This document shows positions 3 through 44,341 of a stretch of DNA of 44,960 bases, one piece after another. The position numbers and the translations under genes were made by a program. This DNA comes from a virus. Location: the IMG/VR virus record IMGVR_UViG_3300031728_000001, one strand, 5' to 3'. How positions within the stretch are numbered: position 1 is the first letter of the stretch; every line of letters starts with the position of its first letter. The notes under the pieces were generated by a model. The model had not been told where the DNA came from. It did no database searches and was given only the letters and a program-made list of their open reading frames with translations.

Positions 3-383
3 TGGTTTGTGAAAGGAATAAGAAAAAATAATCCTGATTGGCTTGTGGTAGATAAAGGTGATGATGTTAGTGAGAAAAAACAGACTTGGTGGGGCATAGA
101 AGAAATAACATGTGCCAACAAGTTATTAAGACATTATGGACCAGAGATTGTAGAGAAAACTGTTGAGTGGTTTTGTGATAATTGGCAAGCCATGATTGAT
201 AATAGTAATGGAAAACTTTCTGGTGCACCTAATGTTAGATTTTTATGGGTTGGTAGAGATAGAATATTTGTTGATGCCAAGTTAGGAAATGTACCAGGTG
301 AAAAGAAGCCAAAGAAGAAAAAACATATGGTAGGTGAGTACAATGCAGAGCGTGCAAAAAAACGGCCAAGGGTTGGCTGGTAG
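3..383 (+). CDS. partial CDS, C-terminal part of unknown protein (possibly replication-associated) just upstream of the helicase-loader gene
   Basis: The frame is open to the window edge and ends at TAG 381-383. It sits directly before the DnaC-like gene. Lys-rich tail. Confidence 0.4.
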   Translation, partial: WFVKGIRKNNPDWLVVDKGDDVSEKKQTWWGIEEITCANKLLRHYGPEIVEKTVEWFCDNWQAMIDNSNGKLSGAPNVRFLWVGRDRIFVDAKLGNVPGEKKPKKKKHMVGEYNAERAKKRPRVGW

Positions 384-1026
384 AATGTTTTCCAATGTTA
401 TATTTAGACGTGAATTAGATATTAAAGATTTAGAACGAATGTGTATTCCTAAGCGTTATTGGAAAGCGAGCTACTATAATCTTACGGATAATGGTGGCGA
501 AGAAAGTCTTAGGAATATGGTTGGAAATTATATTTCTAATATGGCTAAAATGCGAAAAGAAGGTGGGGGATTTATATTTTATGGTGATAATGGGACTGGT
601 AAATCATGTGCATCTGTAGTATTGGCAAAAGAATTTCGTAGAAGAGGTAATACTGTTTTATTCATAGAAGCTGCTGATTTGAAGCGATTGGTTGCCAGTA
701 AAGAATATTTTGATGACAATGAGACATATTGGGAACGTTCCAAAGATGTAGACGTATTAGTAATTGATGATTTTGGAAAAGGGATAATGGATGATACTGG
801 ATTTGGTGCAACTATTTTTGATGAATTAATTAGGTCTAGAAATGCAAATAAAAAAGTTACAATAATTACGTCTAATATTGAACCACACGAATGGGTTAGT
901 GAATTGACATTGAAGAATTCTACTATTCATACATTGGAAGAATGTACAATTCCTGTTCATGTTATTGGGGATAATCAAAGGAATGGTTCTATACAAAAAT
1001 TAAGGTCACTTTTGAAAGATAATTGA
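334..1026 (+). CDS. DnaC/IstB-like AAA+ helicase loader
   Basis: Walker A GDNGTGKS, Walker B VLVIDDFGKG, and a TIITSN sensor motif. An in-frame ATG at 385 right after the upstream stop is an alternative start. Confidence 0.75.
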   Translation: MSTMQSVQKNGQGLAGRMFSNVIFRRELDIKDLERMCIPKRYWKASYYNLTDNGGEESLRNMVGNYISNMAKMRKEGGGFIFYGDNGTGKSCASVVLAKEFRRRGNTVLFIEAADLKRLVASKEYFDDNETYWERSKDVDVLVIDDFGKGIMDDTGFGATIFDELIRSRNANKKVTIITSNIEPHEWVSELTLKNSTIHTLEECTIPVHVIGDNQRNGSIQKLRSLLKDN

Positions 1027-1033
1027 GGATGAA

Positions 1034-2359
1034 ATGGGAGATAACAAGACTCCTCCATATAATGAAGAAGCTGAAAATGCTGTTCTTGGGTCTGTTCTTT
1101 TGAATAATGATTGTTGGGGTGAGGTTTTTGCCAATGTAAATGAAGAAGATTTTTATATAAATTCCAATAGAATAATTTTTTATGGCATGTATTCTTTGTT
1201 CGAGGCTGGGATACCTATTGATCATGTCACATTAGGAAACAGATTAAGAGAGCAAGGTCAACTAAAAAATATAGGTGGTGCAATTGCATTATCGCAATTG
1301 ACAGATTTTGTATCTGCACCGTCAAATGTGGGTCATTATGCAAATATAGTTAGAGAAGCCAGTGCTATACGTCGTGTAATATATAATGCTCAGAAAGTTG
1401 TTTATGATGGATTTAAAGCAGAAGGTATAGATTCTTTATCTCCTAGTCTTGAATCCCTGTTGAATGCAGCACAGGATCTTTCTAGGCATAGAATGCCACA
1501 TAATTTATTGGATATTGGAGGAAAGGTTCTTGAGAATTATAGAAAGGCTGCTGATGGATATAGGGGTATTCCATTTCCGTGGAAAACAATAGATGATATG
1601 ACGGCAGGTGCATGGCCCAAAACTGTTACTATGTTTGTTGCTCGACCTTCAGTTGGGAAAACGTTCGTCTGTGTTATATGTGGTAGACATGCATGGATGA
1701 AAGATAAACGTGTTTTGATTGTTTCACCAGAAATGAGTAAAGATGAGATAGCTGAGAGATTTTTTACTATCCATTCTGATGTTAGTTACCATAGTGTTAT
1801 TACTGGTCAACTTCCAACTGTTATGGAGCAAAAATTTGTAAATACAATTAATGGTGAGGCTGGTAAGGATGGATTGTGGATTATGGATTCTGATGATGAT
1901 TTGAGTCCGCGTGGTATAGATGCTGCAATTCGTGCTTGTAATGCTGAGCTTGTTGCTGTTGATTCGATTTATGACCTACATATTAAAGGGGATCGTCGTG
2001 AGAGAGCCGTGGAGGCTCTTGGATGGATGAAGCGAAGTTGCAAGGAGCTTGGCTATGCTGCGATAGGCTTTGCACAGCAGAATAGGACTGCTGAGCTTTC
2101 AGAGAAGAAGGGTGGAGGGGCAAGGCTTGGAACAATTGCATTAGCTGATGAGATTGGGCAGGATGTTCATGCTGTTTATGCATTAATACAAAATAAAGAT
2201 GATAAAGATGATAAAGTAATGAAATTTAAGCCATTAAAACTTCGTAGAGGGCAATATAAAAAGCCAGAAGTAAAAGTGCATTGGGATTTTGATAGAATGG
2301 AGTTTGGTGAAATTGAAGAAGAGGAAAATAATGAAGAGGAAGATGGGATACCATTTTAG
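1034..2359 (+). CDS. dnaB: DnaB-family replicative DNA helicase (ends in SSB-like EDGIPF tail)
   Basis: The N-terminal domain (NEEAENAVLGSVLLN) resembles DnaB. RecA-like core with Walker A ARPSVGKT. Size 441 aa. Confidence 0.8.
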   Translation: MGDNKTPPYNEEAENAVLGSVLLNNDCWGEVFANVNEEDFYINSNRIIFYGMYSLFEAGIPIDHVTLGNRLREQGQLKNIGGAIALSQLTDFVSAPSNVGHYANIVREASAIRRVIYNAQKVVYDGFKAEGIDSLSPSLESLLNAAQDLSRHRMPHNLLDIGGKVLENYRKAADGYRGIPFPWKTIDDMTAGAWPKTVTMFVARPSVGKTFVCVICGRHAWMKDKRVLIVSPEMSKDEIAERFFTIHSDVSYHSVITGQLPTVMEQKFVNTINGEAGKDGLWIMDSDDDLSPRGIDAAIRACNAELVAVDSIYDLHIKGDRRERAVEALGWMKRSCKELGYAAIGFAQQNRTAELSEKKGGGARLGTIALADEIGQDVHAVYALIQNKDDKDDKVMKFKPLKLRRGQYKKPEVKVHWDFDRMEFGEIEEEENNEEEDGIPF

Positions 2360-2388
2360 TTGACAAACTTTAAATGTGGTGTTATTTA
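2360..2388 (+). promoter_or_regulatory. putative sigma-70-type promoter (TTGACA, 17 nt spacer, TATTTA)
   Basis: Member of the repeated GTTGACAAA box family. The -10 is weak. Confidence 0.3.
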
Positions 2389-2503
2389 CAGTTTTGGAAG
2401 GTTGTTGTAGAGAGTTTTGATGATGATTTTGTTAATAGTTGATTTCTTTATTAAAGATATAATTGGTCTATTTGGCATAGTAGTTAATATGACGTGAAAA
2501 ATA

Positions 2504-2525
2504 TTGGCGAACTCGAGTTCGCCAA
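2504..2525. repeat. copy 1 of GCGAACTCGAGTTCGC palindrome (extended to a 22-bp perfect palindrome)
   Basis: ttGGCGAACTCGAGTTCGCCaa. Intergenic, 58 nt upstream of the 2583 start. Confidence 0.9.
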
Positions 2526-2582
2526 ATGGTGCTAATGGAGCACTAAAAAGATGGTGATATAGGATCACGAAATGGAGAAAAA

Positions 2583-3593
2583 ATGGGCATTGGAACTTAT
2601 AGTAAAGGATGGGGAGACCCAGATGAATATGATAGTTATGATAGCGATTATGATAGTAGTGATAGTGGGAATAAGATTACTGAAAATGAAAGACTCTATA
2701 GATTTAGATTTTCAATTCCAACACCAAAGGGTACGGATAAAAAACCAAATTTAGTAAATCCTGGTTCATCTGCTACTAAACGAGTGCTTTTTTTGGATGG
2801 TTCTCCTTTTAATATTTATGAACATAGTTTATGGAGATTTAAAAATGCTTATAATATTTTTCAGGCATTTACAGCAATTTGTTTAGAAAAAAATGGTATC
2901 TCAAAGATACCATGTCCTGTTTGTTCTAAAAAAGGTGGAAAGGATTTTGCATATTTTATTGGATTTTTACCAGTTATTGACATGGGACAGGTTGAACGGA
3001 TAGGAAATAGGGTAAGATTGCATCATGAATATTGGGAGAATGATAATGGTGACCGATTTGAGAGGTCTTTTCAGAGAGTTTTACTAGGTGCTAAAAGAGG
3101 ATCTGTTGATAATCCAGGTGTTATGAAGACATTACAGAGAAGGTTAGCAGAAATAAGGCAACAACATGGTATTGAAGATTTGACTGGTACAATATGGGAT
3201 ACAACTAGAACTGGAAAAAAAGAACCTATTGTAGGTAATGATTGGTCTTTTGTAGATAGAATTTTACCTGAACACTTTGAGGAATATCTTGTTAGATGGG
3301 GTGCAGATCCAGAATATTTAAAATTGGATATACCAGTATATACAGACCCAGATTCGAAAAAAGGGGTATTTGATATTGATGTTGATGATTATCAGGCAAA
3401 ACTTGATGAACTTGTAGGATGGGGAGATAATAGAGGTAATAAATCGTTTCATGATGGACAAAGACAAGGGATGGTACGTAGTAATATGCAAACTGGCATG
3501 AGAGAGCCTCCTAAAACGTATGGAGTTGGTTTTGGTAATAGTGGTCAATATGTAGGACCTAATGGTCCCAATGATGATGATATACCGTTTTGA
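2583..3593 (+). CDS. hypothetical protein with Gly-rich linker and SSB-type C-terminal DDDIPF tail; possible ssDNA-binding protein
   Basis: The C-terminus ...GPNGPNDDDIPF matches the acidic tip of bacterial SSB. Acidic Asp/Ser/Tyr-rich N-terminus. SD ggag 6 nt upstream. Confidence 0.6.
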   Translation: MGIGTYSKGWGDPDEYDSYDSDYDSSDSGNKITENERLYRFRFSIPTPKGTDKKPNLVNPGSSATKRVLFLDGSPFNIYEHSLWRFKNAYNIFQAFTAICLEKNGISKIPCPVCSKKGGKDFAYFIGFLPVIDMGQVERIGNRVRLHHEYWENDNGDRFERSFQRVLLGAKRGSVDNPGVMKTLQRRLAEIRQQHGIEDLTGTIWDTTRTGKKEPIVGNDWSFVDRILPEHFEEYLVRWGADPEYLKLDIPVYTDPDSKKGVFDIDVDDYQAKLDELVGWGDNRGNKSFHDGQRQGMVRSNMQTGMREPPKTYGVGFGNSGQYVGPNGPNDDDIPF

Positions 3594-3602
3594 GGTTGTA
3601 TT

Positions 3603-6176
3603 ATGAAAGTTGTTGTAAGTGGAAATGTTTGGTTGCCAATTGATGATTTGTCTGCTCAACAGATTTTAAATATAAAAGAATTATTAACGATATATCCTAA
3701 GAAGACGACAGATATTGCTACAAAGGCAGATCCAAAGCCTATTTATATGTATGATGAAAAGGAGGATTTCATTGGTGTTCCTAGAGCATGGTATAGGAAA
3801 AATGTTACAAAGGAACATGATGAAATATTAAAAATATCATATGGTAGTAAAATGTCAGACTTTACTACTAGATATCAGGCAACTGGAAATTTCATTGAAC
3901 AGGAAGCTGTAATAAGAACATTTCTTGCTAGAATGGAGGGTAAAAAGTGGGATGGTTTTTTGTTGAAAGCAGGATGCGCTTTTGGAAAGGCATTAAAAAA
4001 TGGAGAACCTGTTTTAACATCTAATGGTTATATTCCTATAGAAAAATTAACTGTTAATGATATGGTAGCAGGAACTGATGGTAATTTTTATAATGTGACT
4101 GGTGTGTATTCACAAGGTATACGTGATTTATATAGGATTAAATTTACTGATAATACGTATATTGATTGTGATGGTGATCATTTATGGACATTTGTTATTA
4201 GGCGTAGAAAAGGAAAAGTAGTTACAATTAAAACTAAAGATTTATTTTTATCTGATTTACGAGAAAAAAGTGGAAGACTATTTTGGTTGCCAGATATATC
4301 TCCTGTTGATTTTGGAAGAAATGATATATTGCCAATTGATCCATATACATTAGGTGTAATATTAGGTGATGGAAATATAAGTGATTTAAGATCTGTCTAT
4401 ATTACTACTGAGGATTTTGATATAATTAATAATTGTAAACTTCCTCCTGGAAATAGATTTGTTCGTCGCAAGGATAATAGTGGAAGGGCTACTACATATA
4501 GGATTTCTCAAGATGTTAGTAGTTCTAAAATGTTTAAGAATGATTCATTACGTCTTAGATTGAAATCTATCGGGTTGATGGGATGTAATTCTCATGATAA
4601 GTTTATTCCTGATATTTATGAATATGCAAGTATAAATAATAGATTGTCATTATTACGTGGGTTATTTGATGCAGATGGTTATCCAATTTCAAGTGGAATT
4701 GTTGAATATACAACTGTTTCAAAGGTAATGGCAGATTCTGTTTTTAGAATAGTAAATTCGTTGGGTGGTACATGCATAAATAAATATAGGAAAACTAAAT
4801 ATACTAAAAAAGATGGTTCAAAATCTAAATGGTTTTATAGTTATAGACTTATTATTAAATTGCCTAAGAATATGAATCCACATAGTTTATATAGAAAAAA
4901 ATGTATTATTAATAATGCAAAATGGCAAAGAAAAATTGGAAGAGCTGTTGATTCTGTTTGTAAAATTGGAAGTGATGAAGCTACATGTATTTCTGTAAAT
5001 AGTCCAGATCATCTTTTTTTGACAAAGAATTGTATTCCTACACATAATACCGCTACTTCATTGGAGTTTGCTAGACGTGTTGGCCGTAAGACATTAATTA
5101 TTGTTCATAAAGAGTTTTTTTTAAAACAATGGAAGAATAGAATAAAAAAATTTATGCCAGATGCTAAAGTTGGAATTATTCGTCAGAATAAATGTGAATT
5201 TGAGGATTGTGATTTTGTTATTGCAATGCTTCAATCTTTAGTGAGGGATAAAGATAGTCATAAGTATCCAGAAAGGATATATAAATCGGAATTTGGAATT
5301 GTTATTAGTGATGAATGTCATAGAATAGCTGCTTCTTCATGGTCATCTGTTTTACCTAGATTTAATGCTGCATGGAGAGTTGGTTTAACAGCAACTCCTA
5401 GACGAAAAGATGGTGCACAAGACGTATTTTTTAATCATATAAGTGATGTTACATATTCTGCTAAAACTAAGGCGCAAGTGCCTGGTTTGAGAGTGTTAAA
5501 GACTTATTCATGTTTGAAACCGATAAGAAGGGGTAATTATTATGTATCAGTTGATAATTTGAATAGTGCTCAAATTTTAACTCAGCTTGGAAAGGATCAG
5601 TTTAGAGCAAAAGATATTGTTGATCAATTAGTATTGGCTGTTCAAAATGGTCGTAAAATAATAGTTGTTAGTGAAAGACTTTATCATTTGAAACTTATGA
5701 GTGACATGTTGATGAATTCTTTATTTGACCTTGATTTGCCATTTGAACCTACTATTGATTTTTGTACTGGTGAATGGTTTTCTGGAGAAGTATGGGAAGA
5801 ATCAAATAGTAGGCATAAAAAAGGTGACCCTAAAATGGTCAAAAGAACAGAAGCTGATTTTGATAAAGCAGAACGTGCTAATGTAATTTTTGCAACTAAG
5901 CAGAGCATTGAAGAAGGATTTGATGTTGAAGCGCTTGATGTGTTGGTTCTTTCGATGCCTATGGGAGATATAGAACAAATAGTTGGTCGCGCTAGAAGGT
6001 GGTGTTATCAAGACAAGGAAAAATGTGAACATTATTGTCCATGGAGAGTTGGTAATTGTAAAGAAAAACCTAAACCTATTATAGTTGATGTTGTAGATGA
6101 GAATATTCCCCAGCTTTTACCGAAATGGAGGCGCAGACAGAAGTTCTATAGGAAAATTGGAACAGAAGTGTCTTGA
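3603..6176 (+). CDS. SF2 (DExH) DNA/RNA helicase interrupted by an intein
   Basis: Motif II ISDECH, motif III GLTATPRR, motif VI QIVGRARR, and motif Ia-like RKTLIIVHKEFFLKQW. The motif I region is split by the intein. Confidence 0.75.
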   Translation: MKVVVSGNVWLPIDDLSAQQILNIKELLTIYPKKTTDIATKADPKPIYMYDEKEDFIGVPRAWYRKNVTKEHDEILKISYGSKMSDFTTRYQATGNFIEQEAVIRTFLARMEGKKWDGFLLKAGCAFGKALKNGEPVLTSNGYIPIEKLTVNDMVAGTDGNFYNVTGVYSQGIRDLYRIKFTDNTYIDCDGDHLWTFVIRRRKGKVVTIKTKDLFLSDLREKSGRLFWLPDISPVDFGRNDILPIDPYTLGVILGDGNISDLRSVYITTEDFDIINNCKLPPGNRFVRRKDNSGRATTYRISQDVSSSKMFKNDSLRLRLKSIGLMGCNSHDKFIPDIYEYASINNRLSLLRGLFDADGYPISSGIVEYTTVSKVMADSVFRIVNSLGGTCINKYRKTKYTKKDGSKSKWFYSYRLIIKLPKNMNPHSLYRKKCIINNAKWQRKIGRAVDSVCKIGSDEATCISVNSPDHLFLTKNCIPTHNTATSLEFARRVGRKTLIIVHKEFFLKQWKNRIKKFMPDAKVGIIRQNKCEFEDCDFVIAMLQSLVRDKDSHKYPERIYKSEFGIVISDECHRIAASSWSSVLPRFNAAWRVGLTATPRRKDGAQDVFFNHISDVTYSAKTKAQVPGLRVLKTYSCLKPIRRGNYYVSVDNLNSAQILTQLGKDQFRAKDIVDQLVLAVQNGRKIIVVSERLYHLKLMSDMLMNSLFDLDLPFEPTIDFCTGEWFSGEVWEESNSRHKKGDPKMVKRTEADFDKAERANVIFATKQSIEEGFDVEALDVLVLSMPMGDIEQIVGRARRWCYQDKEKCEHYCPWRVGNCKEKPKPIIVDVVDENIPQLLPKWRRRQKFYRKIGTEVS
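3975..5048 (+). mobile_element. intein (HINT splicing domain plus LAGLIDADG homing endonuclease), 358 aa, inserted in helicase motif I
   Basis: Starts with Cys (CAFGKAL..PVLTSNGYIPIEKL, block A). LAGLIDADG motifs LGVILGDGN and LLRGLFDADGY. Ends ..IPTHN followed by Thr+1. Confidence 0.8.
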
Positions 6177-7347: not shown

Positions 7348-8613
7348 ATGGACACTAAAATGGACACAAAGCGTCCTGGCCTTTCAGTGCTTAAGAGATT
7401 GATCAACAAAGAACATGGTTCTGGAACAATTGGTAGTGCTGGTTCTGTTAAGAATATACCTAGATTGTCAACAGGTAGTTTATCTTTTGATAGGGCATTA
7501 GGTGGTGGTATTGCTGTTGGTAGAACAACTATTTTTGCTGGAGATGAATCATCTGGAAAGACAACAAATGCTTTACGGGTAATAGGACTTGCTCAAAATA
7601 TATGTGCAAATTGTTATAGGCCAGTAAAAGATTTGAGTGTTTCAGAAGTTGTTGATTCAGAAGGTGATACATACTGGAGTGCAGAAGGAAAGTGTGATTG
7701 TTTTAGTCGTGGGATTTTTAAGCCTATTAAATATGATGATGAAAAAGAATCTGATTTTAAAAAACGATTAGAAAGATATAAAGAAAATTCGTATGAAGAA
7801 TTTAGTGTTGTATTTTTTGACCCAGAAGGGACGTTCGATAAGGTATGGGCTGCAAAATTGGGTGTTGATATTCGTAGATTATTGTATGTTCAAGCTGAAA
7901 CAACAGAGGAGGTATGTGATATATATGAGAGTTTAGTAAGAACTGGAGAAATTGATTTGTTTGTGCTTGATTCTATTGCTGCTATGACACCATCTGCAGA
8001 AATTGAGAATAGTTTAGCTGAATGGCAACAAGGATTGCAAGCGAGACTGATGAATAAGTTTATTAGGAAAGTGTTATCTAGTATTACTTCTGTTATGAAG
8101 TCAAAAGGTAGAGCACCAACACATATTTGGATAAATCAATTTAGGGAAAAAATTGGTGGGTCATCATTCGGTGATAATCGTGTGATGACATCAGGAAAAG
8201 GACAATTGTTTTTTGCTAGTACAATTGTAAATTTTTGGACATCAAAATGGACTAAAGAGGAACAAGATAAGGATATTTTTGGTAAGGATTTGATGTCTGA
8301 AATTGGTACTAGAGTGAAAGTTAGTTATAAGACCGAAAAGAACAAGACGGCACCTGCAAAACAAATGGGTAGCTATTATATGTGGATTGCAGGGGATAAT
8401 GCTGGAAAAATAGATGAATTAAAATATGTTATTGGTATGGCTTCTAAATTAAATATGTATAGAGAAGTTGGAGATGGTTCAAATAAGACATGGTATGTTG
8501 GTAATGAAAAATATACTAGAAAAAAGGATGCTATGGCTAGAATAGAAGAATCAGCTACTTTCGAAAAGCTTAGGAAGATTTTATTGGATAGGATATTAGA
8601 TGGGAAAATATGA
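7348..8613 (+). CDS. recA: RecA-family recombinase with Cys4 insertion
   Basis: LSTGSLSFDRALGGGIAVGRTTIFAGDESSGKTT matches the RecA L1/Walker A region. VLDSIAAMTPSAEIE matches RecA VVDSVAALTPKAEIE. Confidence 0.75.
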   Translation: MDTKMDTKRPGLSVLKRLINKEHGSGTIGSAGSVKNIPRLSTGSLSFDRALGGGIAVGRTTIFAGDESSGKTTNALRVIGLAQNICANCYRPVKDLSVSEVVDSEGDTYWSAEGKCDCFSRGIFKPIKYDDEKESDFKKRLERYKENSYEEFSVVFFDPEGTFDKVWAAKLGVDIRRLLYVQAETTEEVCDIYESLVRTGEIDLFVLDSIAAMTPSAEIENSLAEWQQGLQARLMNKFIRKVLSSITSVMKSKGRAPTHIWINQFREKIGGSSFGDNRVMTSGKGQLFFASTIVNFWTSKWTKEEQDKDIFGKDLMSEIGTRVKVSYKTEKNKTAPAKQMGSYYMWIAGDNAGKIDELKYVIGMASKLNMYREVGDGSNKTWYVGNEKYTRKKDAMARIEESATFEKLRKILLDRILDGKI

Positions 8614-44062: not shown

Positions 44063-44341
44063 ATGTTTGATTTTAATATTTATCAAGAAATTCAAGATGG
44101 AATTCCGTCCAGTGAAGCAGAATGGAATCAAGCAGATGCCGAAGAAATAGGTTATCATCATCAAGATAGACCTTGGATATTGACTGGTTATGATGCATGG
44201 GTCCATAATCCCTTTTATAAGGGACCATCTGTGCCACATCCGGAAATAGATTATCCTGATGGAGCTTATTGTGAGGAAGAATACATCGAAGAGACTATAT
44301 ATTCTTCATCTGAACAGCCTGAAGATGATATTCCATTTTGA
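44063..44341 (+). CDS. small acidic protein ending in SSB-like EDDIPF tail
   Basis: Strong SD aaggag before ATG 44063. C-terminus ...SSEQPEDDIPF. Confidence 0.5.
   Translation: MFDFNIYQEIQDGIPSSEAEWNQADAEEIGYHHQDRPWILTGYDAWVHNPFYKGPSVPHPEIDYPDGAYCEEEYIEETIYSSSEQPEDDIPF

What the first reader, a model, noticed from the sequence alone, without database searches (positions are those of the whole stretch)
2339..3593. SSB-type C-terminal D-I-P-F tail on the DnaB-like helicase, a putative SSB, and a third small acidic protein
Three otherwise unrelated proteins end in the hallmark SSB-Ct tip. The helicase 1034-2359 ends ...EEEDGIPF. Protein 2583-3593 ends ...GPNGPNDDDIPF after a Gly-rich linker. 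Protein 44063-44341 ends ...EQPEDDIPF. In bacteria the DDDIPF tip of SSB is the docking peptide for many genome-maintenance proteins. In phage T7 both the SSB (gp2.5) and the helicase-primase (gp4) carry acidic Phe-terminated tails that compete for the polymerase. A helicase and an extra small protein sharing the tip suggests a tail-based replisome organising code. Alternatively the small protein could be a decoy that titrates host SSB-interacting proteins.
Basis: partly seen in the sequence, partly recalled or inferred. Interest (0 to 1): 0.6.

Follow-up and report, generated by a model that had tools for sequence, protein, structure and literature searches.

The report
SSB-type docking tails on three phage proteins
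An uncultured phage puts the short C-terminal peptide that bacterial SSB uses to recruit its partners (acidic residues then Ile-Pro-Phe) on its replicative helicase, on a gp32-like single-strand-binding protein and on a small acidic protein, and all three tails are kept in distant relatives, so they look like one shared docking signal whose receptor is still unknown.

Summary
The DnaB-type helicase (1034-2359) ends EDGIPF, the 336-aa protein (2583-3593) ends DDDIPF and the 92-aa protein (44063-44341) ends EDDIPF. About 3e-4 such C-termini are expected per window.

- Helicase: 97 of 120 homologues end [ILVMAT]-P-[FY]; four cultured-phage DnaBs do not.
- 336-aa protein: about 22 of 26 homologues keep D-[DS]-D-I-P-F behind a variable Gly/Asn/Gln linker.
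- Small protein: it belongs to a family of at least 380 clusters, and about half carry the tail.

A sample of 120 phage ORFs ending DDDIPF also included SF2 helicases, a primase-helicase, an ERF recombinase and unknown small proteins, so the tip is a portable module.

The mechanism is inferred, not shown: a shared docking peptide, closest in logic to the T7 gp4/gp2.5 tails. No partner was identified.

Verdict: new variant of a known kind, moderately interesting.

The parts
334..1026 (+). DnaC/IstB-like AAA+ helicase loader. It is a context gene directly upstream of the helicase and carries no tail.
   Evidence: PF01695 E 7.9e-9 and phrog_50 'DnaC-like helicase loader' E 8e-28. The same position is kept in L002, L004 and L006-L008.
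1034..2359 (+). DnaB-family (SF4) replicative helicase, 441 aa.
   Evidence: PF00772 E 8e-29, PF03796 E 1.5e-19 and phrog_19 E 1.5e-61. NCBIfam DnaB models match but below their cut-offs.
2300..2356 (+). Helicase C-terminal extension EFGEIEEEENNEEEDGIPF (residues 423-441). It has 10 acidic residues in the last 20, and the tip EDGIPF lies at 2339-2356.
   Evidence: It lies beyond the Pfam DnaB_C match (178-422). Of 120 homologues, 97 end [ILVMAT]P[FY] and 113 end F/Y, with about 7 acidic residues in the preceding 17. It is absent from four cultured-phage DnaBs.
2360..2582 (+). Leader between the helicase and SSB genes. It holds TTGACA-N17-TATTTA directly after the helicase stop, and a perfect palindrome TTGGCGAACTCGAGTTCGCCAA at 2504-2525.
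   Evidence: The core CGAACTCGAGTTCG is kept in L001, L008 and L004 although the flanking sequence differs. Its function was not tested.
2583..3593 (+). Divergent gp32-type single-stranded-DNA-binding protein, 336 aa. Residues 1-30 are an acidic Gly/Asp/Tyr-rich N-terminus with invariant W10. Residues 31-282 are the folded core. Residues 283-327 are a disordered linker. Residues 328-336 are the tip GPNDDDIPF.
2823..2924 (+). Putative zinc-binding ligands H81, C100, C111 and C114 (codons 2823-2825, 2880-2882, 2913-2915, 2922-2924).
   Evidence: They are invariant in 26 homologues. The only hhalign hit to T4 gp32 aligns residues 73-115 with gp32 56-92. It puts C100, C111 and C114 on the three Cys of that gp32 stretch (CPVC on CPVC) and H81 one residue from a gp32 His. 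These match Cys77, Cys87, Cys90 and His64 by my recollection of the gp32 zinc ligands. The hit is weak: probability 6%, E 0.006.
3564..3590 (+). SSB-Ct-type tip GPNDDDIPF of the gp32-like protein.
   Evidence: About 22 of 26 homologues, down to about 35% identity, end D-[DS]-D-I-P-F behind linkers that vary in length by tens of residues.
44063..44341 (+). Small, very acidic protein (92 aa, 22 D+E against 2 K+R, pI 4.05). The core is residues 1-61 with the motif W-I-L-T-x-x-D-x-W-x-x-N-P-F-Y-x-G-P-x-x-P-H-P-E. The linker is residues 62-86. The tip is EDDIPF at 44321-44338.
3603..6176 (+). ResIII/SNF2-type SF2 helicase interrupted by a LAGLIDADG intein. It is a syntenic neighbour, carries no tail and is a candidate tail receptor.
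   Evidence: PF04851 and PF14528. The intein (~3989-5056) is absent from the 98%-identical L001.
7348..8613 (+). RecA-like recombinase. It is a syntenic neighbour, carries no tail and is a candidate tail receptor.
   Evidence: PF00154 E 8e-44. It is conserved in L002, L004, L007 and L008.

Best explanation
The three C-termini are working copies of one short docking peptide of the bacterial SSB-Ct type: an acidic run, then a hydrophobic residue, Pro and a terminal Phe with a free carboxylate, held on a flexible linker.

The 336-aa protein is the phage's ssDNA-binding protein. It has a strongly diverged gp32-type zinc-containing OB fold, and it has a bacterial-style disordered linker and DDDIPF tip in place of the T4-type acidic domain.

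The DnaB-type helicase sits next to its DnaC-like loader and carries the same kind of tip. A hexamer would display six copies on its C-terminal tier.

I infer that SSB-coated lagging-strand DNA and the helicase offer the same ligand to the same receptor pocket(s). Partners would then be held at the fork and handed between helicase and SSB, as the T7 gp4 and gp2.5 tails do on gp5.

The tip matches the near-universal bacterial consensus. It stays the same in relatives ranging from 33 to 64% GC. For those reasons I favour receptors that are host SSB-interacting proteins, such as the clamp-loader chi subunit, the primase C-domain or repair helicases and nucleases. Phage proteins with the same kind of pocket may also be receptors.

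The small acidic protein uses the same pocket as a soluble competitor or adaptor.

Shown: presence of the tails, their conservation, their modular spread, and the fold of the SSB. Inferred: that the tails bind anything, and what they bind.
For: 1. Non-chance and conservation.
- Expected 3e-4 such C-termini per window.
- Helicase tail kept in 97 of 120 homologues, to about 28-40% identity.
- SSB tip kept in about 22 of 26 homologues behind length-variable linkers.
- Small-protein tail kept in an 82%-identical homologue whose linker differs, and present in about half of a family of at least 380 clusters.

2. Co-occurrence. The order loader, tailed DnaB, tailed gp32-like protein, ResIII helicase is kept in all five related phages read (L002, L004, L006, L007, L008; GC 33-64%, contigs up to 195 kb), and a RecA gene is seen in four of them. 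In the near-identical L001 the contig ends before that point. L007 also has a tailed member of the small family (hmmsearch E 5e-9, ends DDDGLPF).

4. Architecture. The linker is disordered (pLDDT below 50) and 53% G/N/Q/P/S.

5. Modularity. DDDIPF-stop gives at least 120 matches against 2 for the scrambled control in IMG/VR. In the sample, 36 are canonical SSBs. The rest include other SSB-annotated PHROGs, SF2 helicases, one DnaB_C/primase-helicase, an ERF protein and unknown small families.

6. Precedents.
- T7 gp4 and gp2.5 tails bind gp5 basic patches (PMC12593628; PMC12339929).
- The HK620 SSB tail NDYPPF is needed for Sak4 (PMC5928155).
- The DnaG C-domain binds SSB-Ct (PMC3632105).
- The phage SSB-like protein Bas52_0087 carries FDDDIPF (bioRxiv 10.64898/2026.04.29.721553).
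Against: - There are no binding data, and no receptor was identified.
- The host is unknown, so I could not test whether the tip matches the host SSB.
- The helicase motif is looser than bacterial SSB-Ct: VPF 38, IPF 33, APF 8, IPY 7, TPF 5. The window has Gly at position -4, and the two closest homologues end IGF and TGF, so Pro is not strictly required. The helicase tail may therefore serve a different or weaker site.
- Relatives sit on contigs of 130-195 kb and probably encode their own polymerase outside the roughly 52 kb I could read. A purely phage-internal circuit is not excluded.
- About half of the small-protein family works without the tail, so the tail is accessory there.
Confidence: 0.55

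Rival explanations
1. A closed, phage-internal circuit of the T7 or T4 kind. The helicase and SSB tails bind only phage-encoded partners: a polymerase encoded outside the window, the DnaC-like loader, the adjacent ResIII helicase, the RecA-like protein or a nuclease. The resemblance to the host SSB tip would then be convergence on a good docking peptide.
For: The T7 gp4/gp2.5-gp5 system and the T4 gp32 acidic domain work this way (PMC12593628, PMC12339929, PMC5928155 discussion). In HK620 the phage SSB tail serves a phage protein, Sak4. Synteny places an SF2 helicase, RecA, a PD-(D/E)XK-like exonuclease, a RuvC-like resolvase and a DHH phosphoesterase near the tailed genes. These are the same enzyme classes that bind SSB-Ct in bacteria. 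Relatives have large genomes that probably encode a polymerase.
Against: Phage-internal tails are free to drift: T7 tails end in Phe without Ile-Pro, and T4 gp32 has no such tip. Here the tip stays at the bacterial consensus across phages of 33-64% GC. No polymerase or primase was found within about 52 kb of the module. The same tip recurs on many unrelated phage proteins in unrelated phages, which is easier to explain by a common host-side receptor.
Confidence: 0.25
2. For the small protein specifically: it is a decoy or inhibitor. As a free, highly acidic carrier of the SSB tip it would occupy the SSB-Ct pockets of host repair, restart or nuclease proteins, or of a defence sensor, and so disable them. 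It would not be a replisome component.
For: Its net charge is strongly negative, with a family median of -13.5. It has no DNA-metabolism domain. It lies 41.7 kb from the replication module in the window and is not next to replication genes in 60 IMG/VR loci. The family is spread over phages of 35-68% GC. A preprint proposes that a phage SSB-like protein with FDDDIPF interferes with host SbcB (bioRxiv 10.64898/2026.04.29.721553).
Confidence: 0.35
3. The tails act mainly in cis as auto-inhibitory electrostatic lids. They would fold back on the protein's own DNA-binding surface (the OB cleft of the SSB, the DNA-binding surfaces of the helicase) and tune DNA binding and loading rather than recruit partners.
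For: Intramolecular binding of acidic tails is documented for E. coli SSB (PMC3936761) and discussed for HK620 SSB (PMC5928155). [quoted passage not shown] The helicase extension is very acidic, with 10 of the last 20 residues D/E.
Against: Electrostatic shielding does not require an invariant hydrophobic-Pro-Phe at the very end, yet that is the best-conserved part in all three families. The small protein has no DNA-binding surface to shield. In known systems this role coexists with partner recruitment.
Confidence: 0.1
4. The motif is a sliding-clamp-binding or other unrelated C-terminal peptide, or a compositional accident.
For: Clamp-binding peptides also sit at C-termini and end in hydrophobic or aromatic residues (general knowledge; review PMC11139829).
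Against: The sequence lacks the Gln-Leu-x-Leu-x-Phe/Leu pattern of clamp-binding motifs and matches SSB-Ct residue for residue (DDDIPF). Chance is excluded.
Confidence: 0.03

Closest known systems
Bacterial SSB C-terminal tip (SSB-Ct, E. coli ...DFDDDIPF) and its interactome
   Same: The tip sequence is identical (DDDIPF, EDDIPF). It sits at the extreme C-terminus, follows a disordered Gly/Gln/Asn/Pro-rich linker and is strongly conserved.
   Different: The carriers are not bacterial-type OB-fold SSBs. One is a gp32-like fold, one is a DnaB-type helicase and one is a small acidic protein of unknown fold. Binding to any SSB-interacting protein is untested.
Phage T7 gp4 helicase-primase and gp2.5 SSB acidic Phe-terminated tails binding gp5 polymerase
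   Same: Both the replicative hexameric helicase and the SSB of one phage carry acidic C-terminal tails ending in Phe. In T7 they share basic patches on the polymerase and increase processivity and exchange (PMC12593628; PMC12339929 and its references 41 and 42).
   Different: There is no homology. The helicase here is DnaB-type with a separate loader and no primase domain, and the SSB is gp32-like rather than gp2.5-like. The tip is the bacterial Ile-Pro-Phe type. No polymerase gene is in view. A third, non-replisome protein carries the tip.
T4/RB69 gp32
   Different: There is no detectable sequence-family membership (no Pfam hit, PHROG of unknown function, profile E 0.006 only). The N-terminus is acidic and Gly/Tyr-rich rather than the basic cooperativity segment. 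The C-terminal end is a bacterial-type tip, which T4 gp32 lacks.
Phage SPP1 replication module (G39P loader, G40P DnaB-type helicase, G36P SSB) working with host PolC/DnaE, clamp loader and DnaG
   Same: The gene set is the same (loader + DnaB-type helicase + own SSB). [quoted passage not shown]
   Different: The SPP1 SSB is a canonical OB tetramer, and I found no report of an SSB-type tip on G40P. Whether the present phage uses the host polymerase is unknown.
Non-canonical phage SSBs with SSB-like tips (HK620 SSB, NDYPPF; Bas52_0087, FDDDIPF)
   Same: They are phage-encoded, distantly related or non-canonical ssDNA binders that carry an SSB-Ct-like end. That end is needed for partner recruitment in HK620 and is proposed to touch host factors in Bas52 (PMC5928155; bioRxiv 10.64898/2026.04.29.721553).
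   Different: They are different protein families. tblastn of the 336-aa protein against 50,697 phage records finds nothing. Neither paper describes a helicase or a small protein with the tip.

Membership tests
SSB-Ct-type C-terminal docking peptide | Motif at the extreme C-terminus (free carboxylate of the terminal Phe). | tested here: met
   A stop codon follows Phe directly in all three genes.
SSB-Ct-type C-terminal docking peptide | Consensus of acidic residues followed by [IL]-P-F. | tested here: met
   The tips are DDDIPF and EDDIPF, with EDGIPF in the helicase. The helicase family consensus is looser: [VIATL]-P-[FY] after an acidic run.
SSB-Ct-type C-terminal docking peptide | Carried on an intrinsically disordered, length-variable linker. 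| tested here: met
   In the SSB-like protein, residues 283-336 have pLDDT below 50 and linker length varies by tens of residues among homologues. In the small protein, residues 61-92 have pLDDT about 60 and no secondary structure. The helicase was not modelled.
SSB-Ct-type C-terminal docking peptide | Conserved across orthologues while the linker drifts. | tested here: met
   As a control, four cultured-phage DnaBs lack the tail.
SSB-Ct-type C-terminal docking peptide | Binds the hydrophobic pocket and basic ridge of SSB-interacting proteins. | not testable with these tools
   This needs peptide binding assays or complex modelling against known partners. The host is unknown.
T4 gp32-type SSB | OB fold with an inserted zinc-binding subdomain. 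| tested here: met
T4 gp32-type SSB | His + 3 Cys zinc ligands in gp32 order and spacing. | tested here: met
   H81, C100, C111 and C114 are invariant in 26 sequences. hhalign places the three Cys on the three Cys of gp32 residues 56-92 and H81 one residue from a gp32 His. These match Cys77, Cys87, Cys90 and His64 as I recall the gp32 ligands. Metal binding itself was not tested.
T4 gp32-type SSB | Sequence-family membership (Pfam gp32 model or an SSB-annotated PHROG). | tested here: not met
   There is no Pfam, NCBIfam or PDB-HMM hit. All 26 members hit only phrog_17226 (unknown function). hhalign probability is 6%.
T4 gp32-type SSB | Basic N-terminal segment for cooperative binding. | tested here: not met
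   Residues 1-30 are acidic (8 D/E, 1 K/R) and Gly/Tyr/Ser-rich with invariant W10.
T4 gp32-type SSB | Binds ssDNA. | not testable with these tools
   Needs biochemistry.
Canonical bacterial SSB (PF00436 OB tetramer) | Homologous OB domain. | tested here: not met
DnaB-family replicative helicase | DnaB N-terminal domain plus RecA-type C-terminal domain. | tested here: met
   PF00772 E 8e-29, PF03796 E 1.5e-19 and phrog_19 E 1.5e-61.
DnaB-family replicative helicase | Partnered with a DnaC/IstB-type AAA+ loader. | tested here: met
   The adjacent gene 334-1026 matches PF01695 and phrog_50, and is syntenic in all relatives.
T7 gp4/gp2.5 tail-sharing system | Helicase and SSB of one phage both carry acidic tails ending in an aromatic residue. 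| tested here: met
   Pairs co-occur in every related locus read.
T7 gp4/gp2.5 tail-sharing system | Both tails bind the same sites on the phage polymerase. | not testable with these tools
   No polymerase gene was found in the window or in L001 upstream, and there is no binding assay.
T7 gp4/gp2.5 tail-sharing system | Homology to gp4 (primase-helicase fusion) and gp2.5. | tested here: not met
   The helicase has a DnaB N-domain and no primase domain. It hits phrog_239 'primase/helicase' only over the helicase part. The SSB fold is closest to gp32.

The most novel reading that the evidence does not exclude
The bacterial SSB tip is a portable short linear motif. Phages have grafted it repeatedly onto non-SSB proteins (replicative DnaB-type helicases, SF2 helicases, ERF recombinases and a very large family of small acidic proteins) to plug directly into the host's SSB-interaction pockets. 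That would be a bacterial-virus counterpart of motif mimicry by eukaryotic viruses. In this clade the helicase hexamer would display six tips and capture host replisome parts (clamp-loader chi, primase) without the usual tau-DnaB contact. The small protein would tune or block the same pockets.
Probability: 0.4. Interest if true: 0.8.

Novelty: new variant of a known kind. Interest (0 to 1): 0.6.

Why it matters
SSB-Ct is the central recruiting signal of bacterial genome maintenance, and it has so far been treated as a property of SSBs. A replicative helicase clade with at least 100 protein clusters, and a family of small phage proteins with at least 380 clusters, carry the same signal. That gives concrete, synthesisable peptides for asking how phages assemble or hijack replisomes.

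It also bears on whether phage proteins compete with host SSB for repair and restart factors, and on why several defence systems sense phage SSB-like proteins.

It further assigns a likely function (SSB) to a PHROG of unknown function, and defines an unannotated small-protein domain.

Tried and rejected
- Megablast of 12 kb against 50,697 phage records found no match. tblastn of the SSB-like protein found no match. The clade has no deposited relative.
- Genome contexts of small-family members in Komagataeibacter and relatives show copies without a tail and uninformative neighbours. The one cultured-phage hit, Erythrobacter phage vB_EliS-L02, sits among hypothetical proteins.
- I tried to walk the near-identical IMG/VR contig upstream to look for a polymerase. 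One scan yielded only 1.3 kb of new sequence, so I abandoned it.
- I considered matching I/V in the helicase and SSB tips within genomes. The few pairs available (mostly IPF/IPF, one VPF/VPF, one VPF/IPF) are uninformative.
- I rejected a clamp-binding motif and a compositional artefact.
- Seven literature searches found no description of a DnaB-type helicase carrying an SSB-Ct tip. The library is not exhaustive.
Full report
**What is there**

The window has 33% GC and nearly all of its genes are on the + strand. It carries phage-type DNA-metabolism genes.
- At its left end lie a DnaC/IstB-like loader (334-1026), a DnaB-family helicase (1034-2359) and a 336-aa ORF (2583-3593).
- These are followed by a ResIII/SNF2 helicase split by a LAGLIDADG intein (3603-6176) and, further on, a RecA-like gene (7348-8613).
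- The window also holds a PD-(D/E)XK-like exonuclease, a RuvC-like resolvase and several nucleotide-metabolism enzymes.

Each gene has a Shine-Dalgarno-like sequence before its ATG.

**Is it chance?**

No.
- Only four ORFs in all six frames end IPF-stop, and three of them are these genes.
- From the window's own amino-acid frequencies I expect 2.9e-4 such ends, giving P(>=3) of about 4e-12.
- Outside the tails the three proteins share no similarity.

- *Helicase.* Of the 120 best homologues, which run down to about 28% identity, 97 end [ILVMAT]-P-[FY] and 113 end in Phe or Tyr. About seven acidic residues lie in the 17 residues before the tip. The few exceptions are mostly fragments. The commonest endings are VPF (38) and IPF (33). 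The two closest homologues end IGF and TGF. Four DnaB-like helicases of cultured phages at 26-30% identity stop shortly after the RecA domain with no such tail, so the tail belongs to this uncultured lineage.
- *336-aa protein.* I found 25 homologues. About 22 of the 26 sequences end D-[DS]-D-I-P-F, while the preceding Gly/Asn/Gln/Ser-rich segment varies in length by tens of residues.
- *Small protein.* The word-index search found only two close homologues, both with EDDIPF. One of them has a linker of different length. The exhaustive HMMER search found 380 cluster representatives sharing a sharply conserved core, W-[IV]-L-[ST]-x-x-D-x-W-x-x-N-P-x-Y-x-G-P-x-x-P-H-P-E. Of 147 examined, 58 have a strict tail and 16 a loose one. 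Among the 106 with at least 15 residues after the core, 71 carry a tail. Many of the rest stop right after PHPE. In 60 IMG/VR loci (GC 35-68%, contigs 4-317 kb), 25 of 56 family ORFs carry the tail.

**Co-occurrence**

The order loader, tailed DnaB, tailed 300-340-aa protein, ResIII helicase is kept in all five related phages I read (L002, L004, L006, L007, L008). These span 33-64% GC and sit on contigs of up to 195 kb. A RecA gene is seen in four of the five, but not within the part of L006 that I read. In the near-identical L001 the contig ends before that point.

In L007 a 102-aa ORF about 4 kb upstream of the loader is a member of the small family (hmmsearch E 5e-9). It ends DDDGLPF. The trio therefore recurs in a distant member of the clade.

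**What the 336-aa protein is**

It has no Pfam, NCBIfam or PDB sequence match, and it belongs to phrog_17226, a family of unknown function.

An AlphaFold2 model built from the 26-sequence alignment is confident for residues 31-282. It is disordered at residues 1-30 and 283-336.

The family has invariant H81, C100, C111 and C114. The only hhalign match between the family profile and T4 gp32 aligns residues 73-115 with gp32 residues 56-92.
- That stretch holds gp32's zinc ligands, as far as I recall them: His64, Cys77, Cys87 and Cys90.
- The match puts CPVC on CPVC and places H81 one position from a gp32 His.
- Statistically it is weak, with probability 6% and E 0.006.

No canonical SSB is detectable in the window with an E. 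coli SSB query.

I conclude, with moderate confidence, that this is the phage's SSB. It is a far-diverged gp32-type fold that lacks the basic N-terminal segment of gp32. It carries a bacterial-style disordered linker and tip.

**What the small protein is**

It is very acidic (22 D+E against 2 K+R), and the family median net charge is -13.5. The model shows two helices, a small hairpin and an ordered extended segment covering the NPFY...PHPE motif. After that comes an unstructured tail.

**A wider pattern**

I classified the 120 sampled phage ORFs that end exactly DDDIPF.
- 36 are canonical SSBs, found by jackhmmer seeded with the E. coli OB domain.
- I scanned 77 other unique ORFs of at least 60 aa. 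Many match PHROGs annotated as SSBs of other kinds.
- There are also SF2 helicases: ResIII, DEAD and Helicase_C domains in three to four ORFs, and phrog_16 in five.
- One is a DnaB_C/primase-helicase, one is an ERF annealing protein and one is a processivity-factor-like protein.
- One is a TIR-domain protein.
- Several belong to unknown small families.

The sample is small and in arbitrary order. It still shows that the tip is a portable module in phage DNA-metabolism proteins, and that helicases carrying it are not confined to this clade.

**How it most likely works**

*Shown:* three unrelated proteins of one phage carry a conserved, terminal, linker-borne peptide identical or close to bacterial SSB-Ct.

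*Established for the model systems:*
- SSB-Ct docks by its terminal Phe and acidic residues into pockets of many genome-maintenance proteins, including chi and the primase C-domain (PMC3632105, PMC3045619).
- The T7 gp4 and gp2.5 tails share basic patches on gp5 and hold polymerases at the fork (PMC12593628, PMC12339929).
- Phage SSB tails recruit phage partners (PMC5928155).
- SPP1 combines its own helicase, loader and SSB with the host polymerase and primase, and needs an SSB with a tail (PMC3561973).

*Inferred:*
- In this phage the helicase hexamer and the SSB filament offer the same ligand to common receptor(s). That would keep partners at the fork and allow hand-off between helicase and SSB.
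- In T7 the helicase C-terminal face points toward the fork and the leading-strand polymerase (PMC12593628). By analogy, six tips on the C-terminal tier would be well placed for this.
- I favour host SSB-interacting proteins as at least part of the receptor set. The tip stays at the bacterial consensus across phages of very different GC content, the same tip recurs on unrelated phage proteins, and no polymerase or primase gene lies within about 52 kb of the module.
- This last step is the weakest. The genome is incomplete and the host is unknown.
- The small protein would act on the same pocket as a competitor (decoy) or an adaptor. I cannot separate those two.

**Caveats**

- There is no binding evidence of any kind.
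- The helicase motif is looser than SSB-Ct: Val is as frequent as Ile, Ala, Thr and Tyr variants occur, and Pro is replaced by Gly in the nearest relatives. It may therefore serve a different or lower-affinity site.
- The gp32 assignment rests on fold similarity of moderate strength.
- Literature searches of the held library found no description of a DnaB-type helicase with an SSB-Ct tip or of the small family. The library is incomplete, so 'not described' is provisional.
- A 2026 preprint does describe a non-canonical phage SSB-like protein with FDDDIPF. That part of the architecture has precedent.

**Verdict**

It is a new variant of a known kind, namely SSB-Ct or T7-type tail docking, on new carriers. 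These are a DnaB-type helicase clade, a gp32-like SSB and a large unannotated small-protein family. Interest 0.6.

Noticed in passing
IMG/VR loci L093-L212 (e.g. L133:4839-6524, L172:942-2771, L180:3136-4842, L206:45-464, L113:12674-13483, L123:4873-5745, L169:6511-7686): I sampled 120 phage ORFs ending exactly DDDIPF. Only 36 are canonical SSBs. The others include SF2 helicases, a primase-helicase fragment, an ERF annealing protein, a processivity-factor-like protein, a TIR-domain (CAP12/Pycsar-type) protein and several unknown small families. The scrambled control DDDPIF-stop has 2 hits in the whole collection.
   Followed up: partly
window 2360-2582 (palindrome 2504-2525; TTGACA at 2362-2367): The leader of the SSB gene has TTGACA-N17-TATTTA directly after the helicase stop. 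It also has a perfect palindrome whose core CGAACTCGAGTTCG is kept in L001, L008 and L004 although the flanks differ. It could be a promoter plus an operator or translational control site, as for T4 gene 32. This was not tested.
   Followed up: partly
window ~3989-5056 within 3603-6176: A LAGLIDADG intein interrupts the ResIII/SNF2 helicase. The 98%-identical IMG/VR contig (L001) lacks it precisely. The DnaB of relative L002 (859 aa) and the ResIII helicase of L006 also carry inteins.
   Followed up: partly
L007:5708-6016: In a 64%-GC member of the same phage clade, a divergent member of the small WILT..NPFY family with a DDDGLPF tail lies about 4 kb upstream of the loader/helicase genes. In the window the family member is 41.7 kb downstream.
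   Followed up: yes
protein P0157: A 1399-aa protein holds six copies of the small-protein core domain and ends in a hydrophobic segment followed by basic residues (HKRRK). The domain therefore also occurs as a repeat in a large, possibly membrane-anchored protein.
   Followed up: no
L010-L025 (Komagataeibacter and Novacetimonas genomes, one labelled as an unlocalized plasmid sequence), L009: Cellular or plasmid copies of the small-protein family lack the IPF tail (they end ...WWPDDPTP). The neighbours are uninformative.
   Followed up: partly
window 40021-42681: An 886-aa ORF has no PHROG or NCBIfam match. Its C-terminal third is rich in charged residues and looks coiled-coil-like.
   Followed up: no
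window 2583-2672: The N-terminus of the SSB-like family is conserved and acidic (M-G-x-G-x-Y-S-x-G-W-x-x-x-D-D-Y-D, W10 invariant). That is the opposite charge to the basic cooperativity segment of T4 gp32. Its role is unknown.
   Followed up: no
L031:1872-2081, L057:8629-8919, L031:6050-6442: Further small phage ORFs, unrelated to the three families studied here, also end in acidic + [IL]P[FY] (...FDDEIPY, ...KDELPF, ...DDTIPF). They lie next to members of the small family.
   Followed up: partly
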